Source: a virus
Taxonomy: Duplodnaviria; Heunggongvirae; Uroviricota; Caudoviricetes
DNA length: 37,220 nt
Virus record (IMG/VR): IMGVR_UViG_2718218102_000005
Coordinates: 1 to 37,220 of that record
Strand: one strand, 5' to 3'
The notes beneath the pieces were generated by a model. That model had not been told where the DNA came from. It saw nothing but the letters and a program-made list of their open reading frames with translations, and did not search any database. The first letter of the stretch is position 1. The number at the start of each line of letters is the position of its first letter. The translations under genes and the position numbers were made by a program. This document shows, piece by piece, positions 27,171 through 30,927 of this stretch.

Positions 27171-27518
27171 GACCGACCTCTATTTCCCTGAATTTACGAC
27201 GAAACTGTTCGAGCGGACTGAAGCATTCATGCTCATAGCCTTCGCGGAGGTAGATAACACGTTGTGTTTCCGGCTCCCAACGAATGACTCTGACGGGCAC
27301 TCCGTAGTGATCTTTGAACCAGCGGTTAACTTGTCGCAAAGGACTGTCTCCTTCTGCCGGTTGAAATCACCCACAGCCCACTCTGCAAAGCTGTGGGTTA
27401 CAATTTCCCTGTCACCTGGTACATTCACTGCATAGCAATACTCCACCTTCGCTTTTCCACCCGGTACAGGAAGCGCAATCAGTTGCGAGCGACGGTAGTG
27501 TGTTGTTAAACTGTTCAT
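27127..27518 (-). CDS. Hypothetical gene with interrupted reading frame (frameshift or indel)
   Basis: ATG at 27518 overlaps the upstream stop as ATGA, and its first ~55 codons look protein-like; the track ORF then degrades to low complexity, while a second frame (27339-27127, no ATG) encodes a protein-like C-terminal part. Confidence 0.4.
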
Positions 27519-28105
27519 GCGTTAGTTTCTCCACAACCAGAAGCAATCGACGCCACGACGCCCGGAGCTGCACACTCGCGGGCGTTACTCTTTTCTGGAG
27601 CGCAAAAGATTTTGTAGACCAGTGCTGCATGCTCCTGGAGCTTCGAAATTGACAGATACAACTCATCATTAATTGCTGTCTGCTCGTGTGGCTCCACTAC
27701 CCCATCTTCAATTGCCGAACGAATCTGCTTTGAGTAACTCCCGATCTGTTCGATGACTTCCAGCAGGCGCTGGTTTATATCGGCGTTGTCCACATCCTCG
27801 ACGTCAGGAAGAGACACAAAGACGCCATTTGCAGACTGCGCCACAGCGTCAGCAATGAAGTGAGTTCCACCAGCACGTTGCAAAATCATTGCCCATCCCA
27901 GCGGGAAAATCTGATCGCCATCGGCACGAAGGCGGTTAAATAATGCGTTCTCTGTTACATCCAGCCAGTCAGCTGCTTCAGCGTAACCACCCGGCAACGT
28001 TGCGATAGTTTTTCTGACAGCTTTCACGTACCACTCAGGCTGTTTTTCTACTTTCCAGTGATGCTTACCCACGGCTATCTCCTTAAAACTGTGGTTACTT
28101 TCCAT
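27515..28105 (-). CDS. CII-like / YdaT-family regulatory protein (tentative)
   Basis: 196-aa ORF immediately downstream of the Cro/YdaS-like gene, the position of ydaT/cII in Rac-type immunity regions; family assignment from memory only. Confidence 0.45.
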
Positions 28106-28343
28106 CTGATAAGTCTTTAATCTTTTGAAAAATATCTGGACGTAATTTTTCTTTTGATACGCCAGTGGTCATTTCAATAAATATCGAGAGTTTTGCAGGG
28201 GGACGCTTTTCTCTGTTCAACCAGTTCCAGACATGTTGTTGCTTTACTAAACGACCACTGCTGGCTGTGAGCTTCCGAGCCAATTCTGATTGACCACCAG
28301 CCAGAGCGATTGCCTCTGATAAGGCTAATTGCTCAGGTGTCAT
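28095..28343 (-). CDS. Cro-like HTH regulator (YdaS family)
   Basis: 82-aa ORF; GGQSELARKLTASSGRLVKQQHVWNWLN...LRPD fits the YdaS/Cro-like HTH pattern; divergent from the CI-like repressor; AGGAG SD 6 nt upstream of the ATG at 28343. Confidence 0.7.
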   Translation of the reverse strand: MTPEQLALSEAIALAGGQSELARKLTASSGRLVKQQHVWNWLNREKRPPAKLSIFIEMTTGVSKEKLRPDIFQKIKDLSDGK

Positions 28344-28480
28344 AGCTTTCTCCTATCTGTAAGTAGTAAAGTTGTTGATAACTTCGATTATACAACTACA
28401 ACAACTTTTATCACAACTTTTAGATGTTGGAAAGCTAAAACATAAAGTTGTAACCTCAATAAAAACGAGGGGGATATGTT
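28344..28480. promoter_or_regulatory. Immunity-region operator/promoter (OR-like; PR for cro, PRM for cI)
   Basis: Repeated half-site AAAGTTGT / ACAACTTT occurs at least five times; perfect TATAAT on the minus strand (28392-28387) with TTGTGA 18 nt upstream as a PR candidate. Confidence 0.55.
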
Positions 28481-29167
28481 GTGAAAACATTGGCAGAAAG
28501 ACTAAAAAGCGAAAGAGAAAAAGCAGGAATGAGTCAGGCGCAACTAGCTGAAAAAATTGGGCTTTCACAACAATCCGTAGCGAAAATCGAGAATGGAGAA
28601 ACTCAACAGCCTCGGAAAATTAAAGAGATTGCTAAAGTGTTAGGGGTTTCTCAAAAGTGGTTGCAATTGGGCATTGAGGATAACGCGTCTTTCCCAGACC
28701 TTGTTGTAAAGGAGGCTGAAAGTACAGCATTAGATCCTGACATTTTTGCAAACATTCCAGTCCTAGATGTCGAGTTATCAGCGGGTAATGGATGTTTGGC
28801 TGAAATAGTTGAATCAACTGTAGACTGGTTCCCGCTAAGAAGGATTGATTTAAGAAAAGCTGGTGTATGTGTCTCCAATGCAAAGATCGTAAAAATTTGG
28901 GGCAATAGTTTACTACCTGTACTTAACAATGGAGATTTTGTTGCTGTTGATGTTTCCCAAACGGTTCCTATTCGTGATGGGGATCTTTATGCCATACGTG
29001 ATGGCGTATTACTTAGAGTTAAAATATTGATCAATTTACCTGACGGTGGTCTGATTCTAAGAAGTTTCAATAAAGATGAGTATCCAGATGAAATACTCAC
29101 CTTCGAAGATAGGCGTTCCAGAATTCACGTTATAGGTAGAGTATTCTGGTCATCGCGCACTTGGTAA
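28481..29167 (+). CDS. CI-type repressor (HTH-XRE N-terminus + S24 LexA-like peptidase C-terminus)
   Basis: 228 aa, GTG start at 28481 with SD gaggggg; N-terminal HTH (MSQAQLAEKIGLSQQSVAKIENGE), candidate Ala-Gly cleavage site (ELSAGNG) and Ser/Lys dyad context (IWGNSLLP ... LRVKIL). Confidence 0.85.
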   Translation: MKTLAERLKSEREKAGMSQAQLAEKIGLSQQSVAKIENGETQQPRKIKEIAKVLGVSQKWLQLGIEDNASFPDLVVKEAESTALDPDIFANIPVLDVELSAGNGCLAEIVESTVDWFPLRRIDLRKAGVCVSNAKIVKIWGNSLLPVLNNGDFVAVDVSQTVPIRDGDLYAIRDGVLLRVKILINLPDGGLILRSFNKDEYPDEILTFEDRRSRIHVIGRVFWSSRTW

Positions 29168-29194
29168 TGCATCAAAAAACCTTCCTTCAGAAAT

Positions 29195-29299
29195 TTAGTT
29201 ACCATTATTACCCGCCTTTTCAATCTTCCTCCCGTGATTTGAGAGTTTCCAATCACGGAAGGAAAGTGTCCCTTGTGTAATTAAAAGCGCATCGTCCAT
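29195..29299 (-). CDS. 34-aa small ORF with strong SD, convergent with cI
   Basis: Own translation MDDALLITQGTLSFRDWKLSNHGRKIEKAGNNGN; AAGGAGG 4 nt upstream of the ATG at 29299; contains the perfect inverted repeat ccgtgatt/aatcacgg (29232-29258). Coding status uncertain. Confidence 0.25.
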   Translation of the reverse strand: MDDALLITQGTLSFRDWKLSNHGRKIEKAGNNGN

Positions 29300-29350
29300 A
29301 CAACCTCCTTTTTTGATAACCCTTGCCCTCATTTCACATCCGTCAAAACC

Positions 29351-29400
29351 ACATAAAGTTGTTGACAACAACCAAAACAACAACTAGATTACAACTTAAA
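29351..29400 (+). promoter_or_regulatory. PL/OL-like early-left promoter and operator
   Basis: TTGACA (29362-29367), 17-bp spacer, TAGATT (29385-29390); overlapped by the same AAAGTTGT/ACAAC half-sites as the OR-like region, including the near-palindrome gttgttgacaacaac. Confidence 0.5.
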
Positions 29401-29482
29401 GATGTTGCAGTAACGAACAGGCAGGACGCCCACGAAGTAGCCGCCGGTGGCGTATGAATGACCGGATGATTCGTTAAATACT

Positions 29483-29704
29483 ATGTGTAAGAGAGCGCAA
29501 ATGAACCGTTATTTCACATGCTCGTTTTGTGGCGCAAACGAGCTGCAGGCAAAAAAAATCATCGCCAAAGGCGGAAAAGATGAAGTTGCTATCTGCTCTG
29601 AGTGCGTAGTCTTGTGTGTCTGGGCATTAATCAATATCAGCACAACTATTCAGTTCACACCAAATGAGAATGCGCCTTTAGATGCGCGGAAATCTGGAGG
29701 TTAA
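29483..29704 (+). CDS. Standalone ClpX-type C4 zinc-finger (ZBD-like) mini-protein
   Basis: 73 aa (67 aa if started at ATG 29501); YFTCSFCGANELQAKKIIAKGGKDEVAICSECVVLC compares closely with the ClpX N-terminal zinc-binding domain ([33 protein letters not shown], from memory); no AAA+ module follows. First gene after PL. Confidence 0.6.
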   Translation: MCKRAQMNRYFTCSFCGANELQAKKIIAKGGKDEVAICSECVVLCVWALINISTTIQFTPNENAPLDARKSGG

Positions 29705-29793
29705 AGAACAAAATGAAAGTCCAGATTTTAAACAATAACTGTGAAGTCGTTTGGGCGTAAAACATGACCGCGCGTAGACCAAGGGAGGAAAAA

Positions 29794-29970
29794 GTGGGAA
29801 TAGTTAGAAATCAAGCAGATATATTGAAAATCAGCTCTGAATTGCTTGGAGTTTTGAAAAGTGAGCTCACCGCACATGGCATCGAGCCCACTGACGAAAA
29901 TTTAAGTTGGGTTTTGTCGATTATTCAACAATCACTCAAGCCCAGCCTCAGCAAACTTTTTATCGAGTAG
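29794..29970 (+). CDS. Hypothetical small protein (58 aa)
   Basis: ORF track 29764-29970; GTG at 29794 has a strong SD (agggagg, 5-nt spacer); 3' end overlaps the convergent minus-strand ORF by 39 nt. Confidence 0.4.
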   Translation: MGIVRNQADILKISSELLGVLKSELTAHGIEPTDENLSWVLSIIQQSLKPSLSKLFIE

Positions 29971-30123
29971 TGCTTCGAACTTATCGTAAAGCTTGCTTAT
30001 GTCGTCTATCGGGTTTTCTGACGTACTGTAATTTTTATCTGATGTCATGGCAGCAGTCTGATATGCAGTGTGAGTCTTAACCGATAGTTGGAATAAATAA
30101 AGAATTTTTTCTTCTTTGGTCAT
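29932..30123 (-). CDS. Hypothetical small protein (63 aa), antisense to the PL transcript
   Basis: ATG at 30123 with AAGGA SD 7 nt upstream (MTKEEKILYLFQLSVKTHTAYQ...); AT-rich; convergent with and overlapping the plus-strand 58-aa ORF. Confidence 0.4.
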   Translation of the reverse strand: MTKEEKILYLFQLSVKTHTAYQTAAMTSDKNYSTSENPIDDISKLYDKFEALLDKKFAEAGLE

Positions 30124-30381
30124 AACTATTTCCTTCTTGGCTATATGAAAACACCAAGATACCACCGAGCCTGAAGTGGTGAAAAGACAGGCACATAACA
30201 GCTAAGTATTTTCAACCAGAGAGAATCCTTAGCGTTGTGGTGAATGCGCAGGCTGATGCGCGAAAGACATTGCAGCTATTGCGGAAAAGAGCTGTTCGGC
30301 GGGGCAATTAAACGCCCGTGAGAGTCTGAAATAACCGCAAGCCGGAGATCAGCACCGGTCACCACAACAGCCACTGCTTTG

Positions 30382-30427
30382 GCGGTACCAGTTTGTACAC
30401 TTGCTTCCGGCTGGTACCGCTCTTTTT
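30382..30427 (+). terminator. Strong Rho-independent terminator (tL1-like) in the early-left operon
   Basis: Perfect 10-bp stem gcggtaccag (30382-30391) / ctggtaccgc (30411-30420) followed by tcttttt (30421-30427). Confidence 0.6.
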
Positions 30428-30564
30428 ACAAAACAGAGAAGAGCATCACCGGACGACGGGCTCATAACCCAATCCATCCGGGCGGCTGCCACCGCAGGTG
30501 TTCTTCTCTGTTTTGTGGAGAAACCAACCGACCTTGCAGGGTCGATATGATGAGGAGCAGCAAA

Positions 30565-30927
30565 ATGGCTAGCGAACGCAGTACTGATGTGCAGGCATTT
30601 ATCGGGGAGCTGGACGGCGGCGTATTTGAAACCAAAATCGGCGCAGTTCTCAGTGAAGTCGCTTCCGGTGTGATGAACACGAAAACCAAAGGGAAGGTCT
30701 CACTCAATCTGGAAATCGAACCGTTTGATGAGAACCGTGTGAAAATCAAACACAAACTCTCATATGTTCGCCCAACTAACCGCGGGAAAATTTCCGAAGA
30801 AGACACCACCGAAACGCCGATGTATGTCAATCGCGGTGGTCGCCTGACTATTCTGCAGGAAGACCAGGGACAATTACTGACTCTTGCCGGTGAACCTGAC
30901 GGAAAACTCCGCGCAGCAGGTCATTAA
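30565..30927 (+). CDS. Hypothetical protein, YfdP-like (tentative)
   Basis: ORF track 30379-30927 runs through the terminator; ATG at 30565 (MASERSTDVQAFIGELDGG...) has an AGGAG SD 7 nt upstream and gives 120 aa; sits upstream of yfdQ/R/S-like genes as in CPS-53. Confidence 0.55.
   Translation: MASERSTDVQAFIGELDGGVFETKIGAVLSEVASGVMNTKTKGKVSLNLEIEPFDENRVKIKHKLSYVRPTNRGKISEEDTTETPMYVNRGGRLTILQEDQGQLLTLAGEPDGKLRAAGH

What the first reader, a model, noticed from the sequence alone, without database searches (positions are those of the whole stretch)
29483..29704. Standalone ClpX zinc-binding-domain-like mini-protein as first gene of the PL operon
The 67-73-aa product has the C4 zinc-ribbon spacing and surrounding residues of the ClpX N-domain but no AAA+ module. 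That domain mediates ClpX dimerisation and recognition of substrates and adaptors (lambda O and MuA are ClpX substrates). A free copy made immediately after PL firing could act as a dominant-negative decoy protecting phage proteins from ClpXP, or as an adaptor mimic. It occupies the position where N would be, and I see no N-like protein. I do not know of a characterised phage protein of this kind.
Basis: partly seen in the sequence, partly recalled or inferred. Interest (0 to 1): 0.65.

Follow-up and report, generated by a model that had tools for sequence, protein, structure and literature searches.

The report
Free-standing ClpX zinc-finger protein in prophage
A lambda-like E. coli prophage makes, as its very first early gene, a 67-residue copy of the substrate- and adaptor-docking zinc domain of the host unfoldase ClpX without the motor; it probably acts as a decoy that shields selected proteins from ClpXP, but nobody has tested this.

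Summary
The ORF, whose real start is probably 29501 (67 aa), passes Pfam zf-C4_ClpX (42.3 bits against a cutoff of 27). Its model superposes on solved E. coli ClpX zinc-binding domains (ZBD) at 1.4-1.6 A. The core is under purifying selection (dN/dS 0.10-0.25). It has no AAA+ module.

It is the first gene behind a repressor-controlled PL. Relatives hold the same place behind at least eight different repressor types.

The slot is a variable cargo position. Only 7 of 109 comparable loci carry a ZBD gene there, and about 40 other first genes occur. It follows a conserved, covariation-supported leader RNA and precedes a terminator-like hairpin. No N-like protein was detected.

NCBI already names the protein 'ClpX C4-type zinc finger protein', and PHROGs lists it as function unknown. 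I found no functional study.

The decoy idea is plausible, because isolated ClpX ZBD added in trans blocks adaptor-mediated ClpXP degradation in vitro. It remains inference: my confidence is about 0.4. The rivals are a ClpX-docking adaptor and a function unrelated to ClpX. Interest is moderate (0.5).

The parts
28481..29167 (+). cI-type repressor (HTH_3 plus Peptidase_S24). It defines the immunity region and faces cro (28095-28343, -) and a CP76-type cII (27515-28105, -).
   Evidence: Pfam. Annotated as an XRE family regulator in the identical prophage.
29354..29407 (+). PL promoter (-35 TTGACA at 29362-29367, -10 TAGATT at 29385-29390) with overlapping operator-like repeats.
   Evidence: Promoter scan, 10 of 12 matches with a 17-nt spacer. 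Repeats D2, D3, D4 and D6 are shared with the cI/cro intergenic region 28367-28451.
29411..29478 (+). Conserved structured leader RNA of the PL transcript: three helices of 5, 3 and 5 bp. It is independent of the ZBD gene.
   Evidence: 53 phage records at 83-98% identity. 119 distinct variants. 97.7% of cells paired, 10 of 13 pairs with compensatory changes, covariation 0.651 against 0.160 shuffled. Covariance-model hit of 90.8 bits. No Rfam match.
29501..29704 (+). Gene for the 67-aa standalone ClpX-ZBD-like protein. An alternative upstream ATG at 29483 would give 73 aa. Zinc ligands are C7, C10, C32 and C35. The ZBD core is residues 1-45 and the variable tail is residues 46-67.
30381..30427 (+). 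Terminator-like hairpin (GGCGGTACCAG..CTGGTACCGC followed by TCTTTTT) that closes the promoter-proximal segment holding the ZBD gene.
   Evidence: Read from the sequence. The hairpin changes sequence while staying complementary in related loci, and keeps the T-run. The simple scan missed it because its loop is 19 nt.

Best explanation
The protein is an immediate-early phage product that mimics the N-terminal docking domain of host ClpX. It folds as a ClpX-type zinc-binding domain and probably dimerises as that domain does. It would then bind the short hydrophobic motifs by which N-domain-dependent clients dock on ClpX. Those clients include the adaptors SspB and RssB and substrates of the lambda-O or MuA kind. 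As a free competitor it would keep these clients, and so selected phage or host proteins, away from ClpXP. Substrates recognised directly by the ClpX pore, such as ssrA tags, would be left alone. Shown here: domain and fold identity, purifying selection, and the promoter-proximal position behind a repressor-controlled PL. Taken from the literature: an isolated ZBD inhibits ClpXP in trans in vitro. Inferred: zinc binding, dimerisation, which ligands it binds, any effect in vivo, and which client matters to the phage.
For: Domain identity: Pfam 42.3 bits against a cutoff of 27, and a fold match to solved ClpX ZBDs at rmsd 1.4-1.6 A. The residue equivalent to ClpX F16 is invariant in 27 family members (F9). 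F16 lines the hydrophobic pocket used by lambda O, SspB, RssB and trigger factor (PMC7804408). Isolated ClpX ZBD added in trans inhibits RssB-mediated sigma-S degradation by ClpXP (PMC7226468). lambda O degradation needs the ZBD (PMC7804408), and this phage encodes an O-like initiator (PHROG 391). Expression context: the gene is first behind PL. In most relatives a terminator after cI insulates it from the repressor transcript. A small protease modulator at this position has a precedent in lambda CIII, an FtsH inhibitor encoded in the PL operon (my own knowledge). Related proteins usually carry the domain in even numbers: of the best 150 representatives, 73 have two copies, 10 have four and only 6 have three. 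That fits a module that works as a dimer.
Against: There is no interaction or functional evidence of any kind. The residue equivalent to ClpX I46, the other pocket residue, is not conserved: A, T, V, I, K or L. ClpX Y34 is replaced by an invariant Ala. A three-residue insertion (KGGKDE in place of GPS) sits next to the second zinc knuckle. Ligand specificity may therefore differ from ClpX. This phage's O-like protein has no lambda-O-like N-terminus. Only 7 of 109 comparable phages carry the gene, so it is dispensable for this phage type. Most representatives of the wider standalone and tandem ZBD class come from unnamed genomic and metagenomic sequences, so the domain may be a general peptide-binding module.
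Confidence: 0.4

Rival explanations
1. ClpX-docking adaptor or anti-adaptor. The ZBD-like core pairs with or docks on ClpX's own N-domain, and the variable C-terminal tail (22 to about 80 residues, depending on subfamily) brings in or blocks a specific target. That target could be a host defence protein, an antitoxin or a phage regulator. The effect would be to redirect proteolysis, where the decoy model has the protein simply soak up clients.
For: The core (residues 1-45) is conserved. The tails are specific to each subfamily and differ in length: 67, 61-63, 75, 86-93, 112 and 121 aa. That is the pattern expected of a constant docking module joined to a variable specificity module. ClpX ZBD is a constitutive dimer (PMC7804408), so heterodimers are conceivable.
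Against: Identity to E. coli ClpX ZBD is only 36-41%, and heterodimer formation is untested. Part of the tail conservation is confounded, because in three subfamilies a convergent minus-strand gene overlaps the 3' end of the ZBD gene. The 67-aa form in this window has a tail of only 22 residues, predicted to be disordered (pLDDT below 50).
Confidence: 0.2
2. A function unrelated to ClpX. The treble-clef zinc ribbon would serve as a generic small protein- or nucleic-acid-binding module, for example a regulator touching RNA polymerase, DNA, RNA or another host protein. The resemblance to ClpX would then reflect shared ancestry only.
For: Standalone and tandem ZBD proteins form a large class of their own: 598 representatives at E <= 1e-3, nearly all short and very few of ClpX length. 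The phage family is closer to these than to ClpX. The pocket residues are only partly conserved. The slot it occupies holds about 40 unrelated cargo genes. A weak Elf1-type zinc-ribbon hit (E = 0.036) shows how generic the scaffold is.
Against: The specific ClpX-type signature (CSFCG, K-I-A, IC-x-EC-V-x-C) and the F16 equivalent are kept under purifying selection. No other Pfam, NCBIfam or PADLOC family explains the protein.
Confidence: 0.25
3. A functional replacement for N: a protein antiterminator that acts on the PL leader so that transcription passes the downstream terminator.
For: It holds the position of N. No N-like protein is detectable. A conserved leader RNA lies upstream and a terminator-like hairpin lies downstream.
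Against: The same leader RNA is followed by about 40 different first genes, and by a ZBD gene in only 7 of 109 loci. ZBD genes also occur behind a different leader (L213, L214, L004). The protein has no arginine-rich motif. No leader copy exists on the PR side.
Confidence: 0.04
4. A decaying fragment of a captured host clpX 5' end with no function.
For: It corresponds to the first 45 or so residues of ClpX only.
Against: dN/dS is 0.10-0.25 between subfamilies whose synonymous sites are saturated. The family is old and diverse, found in Escherichia, Salmonella, Enterobacter and Citrobacter prophages, with a conserved start and position. Identity to E. coli ClpX is only 36-41%.
Confidence: 0.02

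Closest known systems
N-terminal zinc-binding domain of ClpX (Pfam PF06689; PDB 1OVX, 2DS5-2DS8)
   Same: C4 zinc-ribbon signature, the same fold (rmsd 1.4-1.6 A), and the conserved Phe of the client-binding pocket.
   Different: It is not attached to an AAA+ motor. It has a three-residue insertion before the second zinc knuckle, Ala in place of Y34, a variable residue in place of I46, and a subfamily-specific C-terminal tail.
Lambda CIII, a small FtsH inhibitor encoded in the PL operon (my own knowledge)
   Same: A small early protein from the leftward operon of a lambdoid phage, proposed to modulate a host AAA+ protease.
   Different: No sequence relationship. CIII targets FtsH and acts as a competing substrate or inhibitor through an amphipathic helix. 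The protein here would act by copying the protease's own docking domain.
T4 PinA and T7 Gp4.5, phage inhibitors of Lon (my own knowledge)
   Same: Phage-encoded early proteins that neutralise a host ATP-dependent protease.
   Different: A different protease, no homology, and no domain mimicry.
Anti-adaptors IraD, IraM and IraP, and lambda RexB (RexB from my own knowledge)
   Same: They selectively block one branch of ClpXP proteolysis without inhibiting the enzyme as a whole. rexB also lies next to cI.
   Different: The anti-adaptors bind RssB, not a generic docking motif. RexB is a membrane protein expressed in the lysogen.
HK022 Nun, a gene in the N position that is not an antiterminator for its own phage
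   Same: It shows that the promoter-proximal PL slot can hold a gene with another job when antitermination does not depend on an N protein.
   Different: Nun is an arginine-rich RNA-binding protein that excludes lambda. HK022 put RNA does not match the leader found here.
Standalone and tandem 'ClpX C4-type zinc finger proteins' of bacteria (NCBI name; PHROG 5259 and 20296)
   Same: The same domain without a motor. This protein is a member of that catalogued but uncharacterised class.
   Different: The phage subfamily has one copy and a fixed place behind cI and PL. Most others have two or four copies, in contexts I did not examine.

Membership tests
ClpX zinc-binding domain (Pfam zf-C4_ClpX, PF06689) | Profile score above the curated gathering threshold | tested here: met
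   42.3 bits against 27, E = 6.7e-11.
ClpX zinc-binding domain (Pfam zf-C4_ClpX, PF06689) | Four Cys ligands as CxxC...CxxC | tested here: met
   C7, C10, C32 and C35 of the 67-aa form. C7, C10 and C35 are invariant and C32 is nearly invariant in 27 sequences.
ClpX zinc-binding domain (Pfam zf-C4_ClpX, PF06689) | Treble-clef fold with a C-terminal helix that superposes on solved ZBD structures | tested here: met
   The top eight Foldseek PDB matches are ClpX entries, seven of them solved ZBD structures; TM 0.81-0.85, rmsd 1.4-1.6 A. The model's pLDDT is 70.7.
ClpX zinc-binding domain (Pfam zf-C4_ClpX, PF06689) | Hydrophobic client-binding pocket (F16 and I46 of E. coli ClpX) | tested here: inconclusive
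   The F16 equivalent is invariant. The I46 equivalent varies (A, T, V, I, K, L).
ClpX zinc-binding domain (Pfam zf-C4_ClpX, PF06689) | Zinc binding and constitutive dimerisation | not testable with these tools
   Only monomer prediction is available. There is an indirect hint from the excess of 2- and 4-copy relatives.
ClpX unfoldase (NCBIfam NF003745, TIGR00382) | AAA+ ATPase module and a full-length match | tested here: not met
   67 aa. Scores are 25.2 and 21.3 bits against cutoffs of 359 and 370.75, covering model positions 6-46 only.
Lambda N-type antiterminator | Promoter-proximal gene of the PL operon | tested here: met
Lambda N-type antiterminator | Arginine-rich RNA-binding motif, N family profile match, and a cognate site on both early transcripts | tested here: not met
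   No arginine-rich motif in the sequence. No N family in Pfam or PHROGs. The leader RNA is present once only and is uncoupled from the gene.
Phage-encoded inhibitors of host AAA+ proteases (CIII, PinA, Gp4.5) | Sequence homology to a known member | tested here: not met
   Pfam found no family other than zf-C4_ClpX and a sub-threshold Elf1 zinc-ribbon hit; NCBIfam gave only partial N-terminal ClpX hits; PADLOC gave none; the named PHROG matches carry no inhibitor annotation.
Phage-encoded inhibitors of host AAA+ proteases (CIII, PinA, Gp4.5) | Binds the protease or its clients and slows degradation | not testable with these tools
   This needs biochemistry. The only support is the published trans-inhibition by ClpX's own isolated ZBD.
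put-type antiterminator RNA (HK022), considered for the leader at 29411-29478 | Structured RNA of about 70 nt directly downstream of PL | tested here: met
   68 nt, beginning about 20 nt after the -10 hexamer, with three covarying helices.
put-type antiterminator RNA (HK022), considered for the leader at 29411-29478 | Similarity to putL or putR, and a second copy downstream of PR | tested here: not met
   No blastn similarity. The covariance model finds no hit in the HK022 immunity region and no second copy in the window.

The most novel reading that the evidence does not exclude
Temperate phages of Enterobacteriaceae deploy a free copy of the ClpX N-domain as an immediate-early molecular mimic. 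It would selectively shut down the adaptor- and N-domain-dependent branch of ClpXP proteolysis (RssB/sigma-S, SspB, lambda-O-type initiators, possibly ClpXP-labile antitoxins) and leave pore-recognised substrates untouched. This would be the first natural inhibitor of an AAA+ protease that works by copying the protease's own docking domain. It would also suggest a function for the hundreds of standalone and tandem ZBD proteins in bacteria.
Probability: 0.35. Interest if true: 0.7.

Novelty: new variant of a known kind. Interest (0 to 1): 0.5.

Why it matters
ClpXP controls the stability of phage replication initiators, transposases, stress sigma factor S, SOS proteins and several antitoxins. 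A phage protein that imitates the docking domain of ClpX would be a new way for a virus to rewire host proteolysis. It would be selective for adaptor-dependent clients and would not block the enzyme as a whole. It would also give a ready-made, genetically encoded tool for separating N-domain-dependent from pore-dependent ClpXP functions. And it would offer a first functional lead for a large uncharacterised protein class. The hypothesis can be tested directly with standard ClpXP degradation assays.

Tried and rejected
1. N-like antiterminator. Rejected: the leader and the gene are uncoupled, and there is no arginine-rich motif and no N family hit.

2. The PL leader as HK022-type put RNA. There is no sequence or covariance-model similarity to putL or putR and no PR-side copy. 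King 2011 (PMC3187212), on further put-like RNAs, could not be read, and the put alignment in Hwang 2022 is an image. Membership in a distant put-like class is therefore not excluded.

3. Rfam. No family matched anywhere in the window or, at E <= 1, in 29150-30700.

4. Defence-system membership. No PADLOC hit.

5. A conserved C-terminal peptide motif (I-x-hydrophobic-x-F...AP) as a second functional site. I set this aside because in three subfamilies that stretch overlaps the 3' end of a conserved convergent gene. The conservation cannot be assigned to either frame.

6. Co-occurrence with a candidate client. A CP76-type cII gene is present in all ZBD loci inspected. It is also present in 21 of 51 ZBD-negative loci, and only 4 unbiased ZBD-positive loci were available, too few to conclude.

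7. Residue-level comparison with the SspB-tail complex. Thibault 2006 was not held, so only F16 and I46 could be used.

8. Literature searches for a characterised standalone phage ZBD or a phage ClpX inhibitor found nothing. A search for the leader sequence in papers found only unrelated hits.

9. The genome-collection scan returned only one locus. The viral collection was far more productive.

Full report
**What is there.** The window is a lambdoid prophage of the SfII/SfV and CPS-53 kind.
- Its immunity region has a cI-type repressor with HTH and S24 peptidase domains (28481-29167, +).
- Opposite lie a YdaS-type cro (28095-28343, -) and a CP76-type cII (27515-28105, -).
- Downstream of cI, on the same strand, is a near-consensus sigma-70 promoter: TTGACA, 17 nt, TAGATT, at 29362-29390.
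- Sequence repeats around this promoter recur in the cI/cro intergenic region: 16-nt, 20-nt and 21-nt families at 71-94% identity and a 12-nt family at 100%.
- These repeats are what operators of one repressor at OR and OL should look like. I therefore accept the promoter as PL.
- The first ORF behind it is the one in the finding.

**The observation.**
- The ORF runs 29483-29704 (73 aa from the first ATG).
- The real start is almost certainly the ATG at 29501 (67 aa). NCBI's pipeline uses it for the identical prophage gene (WP_033545897.1). Every relative starts MN.. there, with a Shine-Dalgarno-like sequence in front.
- The protein passes Pfam zf-C4_ClpX at 42.3 bits (cutoff 27, E = 6.7e-11).
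- Its best solved-structure sequence matches are E. coli ClpX ZBD entries, sharing CSFCG, K-x-I-A and IC-x-EC-V-x-LC.
- An AlphaFold2 model (pLDDT 70.7; the tail after residue 50 is disordered) has ClpX ZBD entries as its top eight PDB matches. TM is 0.81-0.85 and rmsd 1.4-1.6 A. Nothing else exceeds probability 0.21.
- The ClpX NCBIfam models match only their first 46 or so positions, at 21-25 bits against cutoffs above 350. There is no motor.
- Between subfamilies, the 45-codon core has dN/dS of 0.10-0.25 with saturated synonymous sites. It is a real gene under selection and no decayed clpX fragment.

**The family and its place in the genome.**
- A full HMMER scan of 1.84 billion cluster representatives found 598 proteins at E <= 1e-3.
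- Nearly all are short, and very few are of ClpX length.
- Of the best 150, 60 have one matched stretch, 73 two, 6 three and 10 four.
- Standalone ZBD proteins are therefore a large class, and they favour even copy numbers. That fits the known dimeric ZBD unit.
- The close phage subfamily is confined to Enterobacteriaceae prophages: Escherichia, Salmonella, Enterobacter and Citrobacter.
- It has a constant core (residues 1-45) and subfamily-specific tails giving 61 to 121 aa.
- In 80 viral loci, one Enterobacter genome locus and four contigs holding more distant members, the gene always sits just downstream of an S24-type repressor on the same strand.
- The repressors belong to at least eight different types.
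- In most loci a strong intrinsic terminator follows cI and a fresh promoter precedes the ZBD gene. Expression should therefore depend on PL, that is, on infection or induction.
- In this window the post-cI terminator is not evident, because the spacer holds the remnant of another gene. Some read-through in the lysogen cannot be excluded here.

**The slot, not the gene, is the conserved unit.**
- Directly after PL lies a 68-nt element (29411-29478) that is 83-98% identical in 53 phage records. These range from Shigella SfV and Salmonella ST64B to Pectobacterium ZF40, Yersinia YeP1, Aeromonas pAEv1818 and Providencia phages.
- In related loci its conservation begins exactly where the many different promoter and operator sequences end.
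- Thirty diverse variants support three helices. 97.7% of cells are paired and 10 of 13 pairs show compensatory changes. The covariation score is 0.651, against 0.160 for shuffles and at most 0.137 for slid controls.
- A few G-U pairs favour the + strand RNA.
- Rfam has no match.
- A covariance model finds one copy in the window, none on the PR side and none in HK022. The HK022 putL and putR regions share no blastn similarity with it.
- Behind this leader, a sample anchored on the leader alone shows about 40 different first genes. A ZBD gene follows in only 7 of 109 cases (examples).
- Conversely, some ZBD genes sit behind a different leader (L213, L214, L004).
- Downstream in the window, a hairpin with a T-run (30381-30427) closes the segment. 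In relatives the hairpin sequence changes while the pairing and the T-run stay.
- The ZBD gene is thus optional cargo in an immediate-early segment, laid out like lambda's PL-nutL-N-tL1.
- Neither Pfam nor PHROGs finds an N-like protein among the neighbouring ORFs.
- The leader is a candidate cis-acting element for read-through, but I have no evidence for that function.

**How it most likely works.**
- The ZBD is the part of ClpX that docks adaptors (SspB, RssB) and substrates such as lambda O. Without it lambda O is not degraded (PMC7804408).
- The docking site is a hydrophobic pocket of the ZBD dimer that includes F16 and I46, and lambda O, SspB, RssB and trigger factor all use it (PMC7804408).
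- A phage-made free ZBD would therefore be expected to compete for the same clients.
- In its favour: the F16 equivalent is invariant in the family, the phage has an O-like initiator, the gene is expressed first, and lambda CIII against FtsH gives a precedent for a small protease modulator in the PL operon (my own knowledge).
- Against it: the I46 equivalent varies, Y34 is an invariant Ala, a three-residue insertion flanks the second zinc knuckle, and the O-like protein lacks lambda O's N-terminal signal.
- Also against it: the gene is absent from most sister phages, and nothing has been measured.

**Rivals.**
- A ClpX-docking adaptor whose variable tail supplies specificity (0.2). The constant core with variable tails fits this. 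The tail evidence is weakened by a convergent 72-74-aa gene that overlaps the 3' end of the ZBD gene in three subfamilies.
- A ClpX-unrelated use of a generic zinc ribbon (0.25). The large independent class of such proteins supports it.
- An N substitute (0.04) and a dead clpX fragment (0.02) are disfavoured by the uncoupling data and by the selection signal.

**Comparison with what is known.**
- The protein is a member of the ClpX-ZBD domain family. The profile, ligand and fold tests are met, the pocket test is inconclusive, and zinc binding and dimerisation could not be tested.
- It is not a ClpX. It is not related to N, CIII, PinA or Gp4.5.
- Databases already label it: 'ClpX C4-type zinc finger protein' at NCBI and PHROG 5259 and 20296, 'unknown function'.
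- No paper in the held library describes a standalone phage ZBD or a phage-encoded ClpX inhibitor.
- The gene's existence is therefore known. Its function is open, and the proposed mechanism would be a new variant within the known kind of phage modulators of host proteases.

**Verdict.** It is a good, cheaply testable hypothesis with no functional evidence yet. Interest is 0.5. The leader RNA found on the way is at least as unexplained as the protein and deserves its own follow-up.

Noticed in passing
window 29411-29478 (+): A 68-nt structured leader RNA lies directly downstream of PL. It is conserved in 53 phage records across Enterobacteriaceae, Pectobacterium, Yersinia, Providencia and Aeromonas phages. 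It has three covarying helices (10 of 13 pairs compensatory) and long invariant single-stranded stretches (GGCAGGACGCC, CACGAAGUAGC, GGCRUAYGAA, AUGA). It is not in Rfam, does not match HK022 put, and occurs once per phage. It may be a read-through or antitermination element, or a protein-binding site.
   Followed up: partly
window 30381-30520 (+): A terminator-like hairpin with a T-run (30381-30427) is followed at once by a roughly 100-nt long-stem three-way-junction RNA whose 5' strand starts in the T-run. The surrounding region 30225-30570 folds with z = -5.5. The stretch from about 30230 to 30600 is 99-100% identical in mEp460 and several Stx2-converting phages. Four pairs show compensatory changes in 12 variants. 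It sits just upstream of yfdP. Its function is unknown.
   Followed up: partly
window 29195-29330 (-): The spacer between cI and PL holds the 3' remnant of a minus-strand gene that is intact (293 aa) in locus L060 (3906-4787, -). The usual intrinsic terminator after cI, present in most related loci, is missing here.
   Followed up: partly
window 29714-29762 (+): A truncated copy of SfV orf33 (MKVQILNNNCEVVW, then a stop). The full 91-98-aa gene follows the ZBD gene in L005 and is the first PL gene in SfV.
   Followed up: no
window 29764-29970 (+) and 29932-30123 (-): Two overlapping candidate genes on opposite strands. Each matches its own PHROG family of unknown function (15476 and 2605). NCBI and the SfII record annotate only the minus-strand one. 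Which of them is real was not resolved.
   Followed up: no
L211 4245-4469 (-), L213 2337-2555 (-), L065 5302-5718 (-): In three other ZBD subfamilies a conserved convergent gene of 72-74 aa (38% identity between L211 and L213) overlaps the 3' end of the ZBD gene. It could be a paired module. It also confounds any reading of the ZBD tail motif. It is absent from this window.
   Followed up: partly
window 29621-29623 (codon 41 of the 67-aa protein): This window's allele has Trp where almost all E. coli copies have Gly (CVWALIN against CVGALIN). The position corresponds to ClpX D45, next to pocket residue I46.
   Followed up: no
proteins P0024-P0160: There is a large class of short proteins made of 1, 2 or 4 (rarely 3) ClpX-type zinc-binding domains with no AAA+ module. 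One has the domains fused to an aspartate/ornithine carbamoyltransferase (P0049). I found no functional literature.
   Followed up: partly
window 27515-28105 (-) and related loci: Every ZBD-carrying locus inspected has a CP76/YmfL-type cII gene. All but L005, where the gene is truncated, share the C-terminal motif ARECAAPG. The gene is in 4 of 4 unbiased ZBD-positive loci against 21 of 51 ZBD-negative loci. The sample is too small, and too confounded by relatedness, to call this a link.
   Followed up: partly
phage records MW057857.1 and KY363465.1 (hits H138-H141): The PL leader element also occurs in 109-118-kb Providencia phages. In vB_PreS_PR1 it lies inside an annotated repeat region and has two places in the record, far from any lambdoid immunity region.
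   Followed up: no
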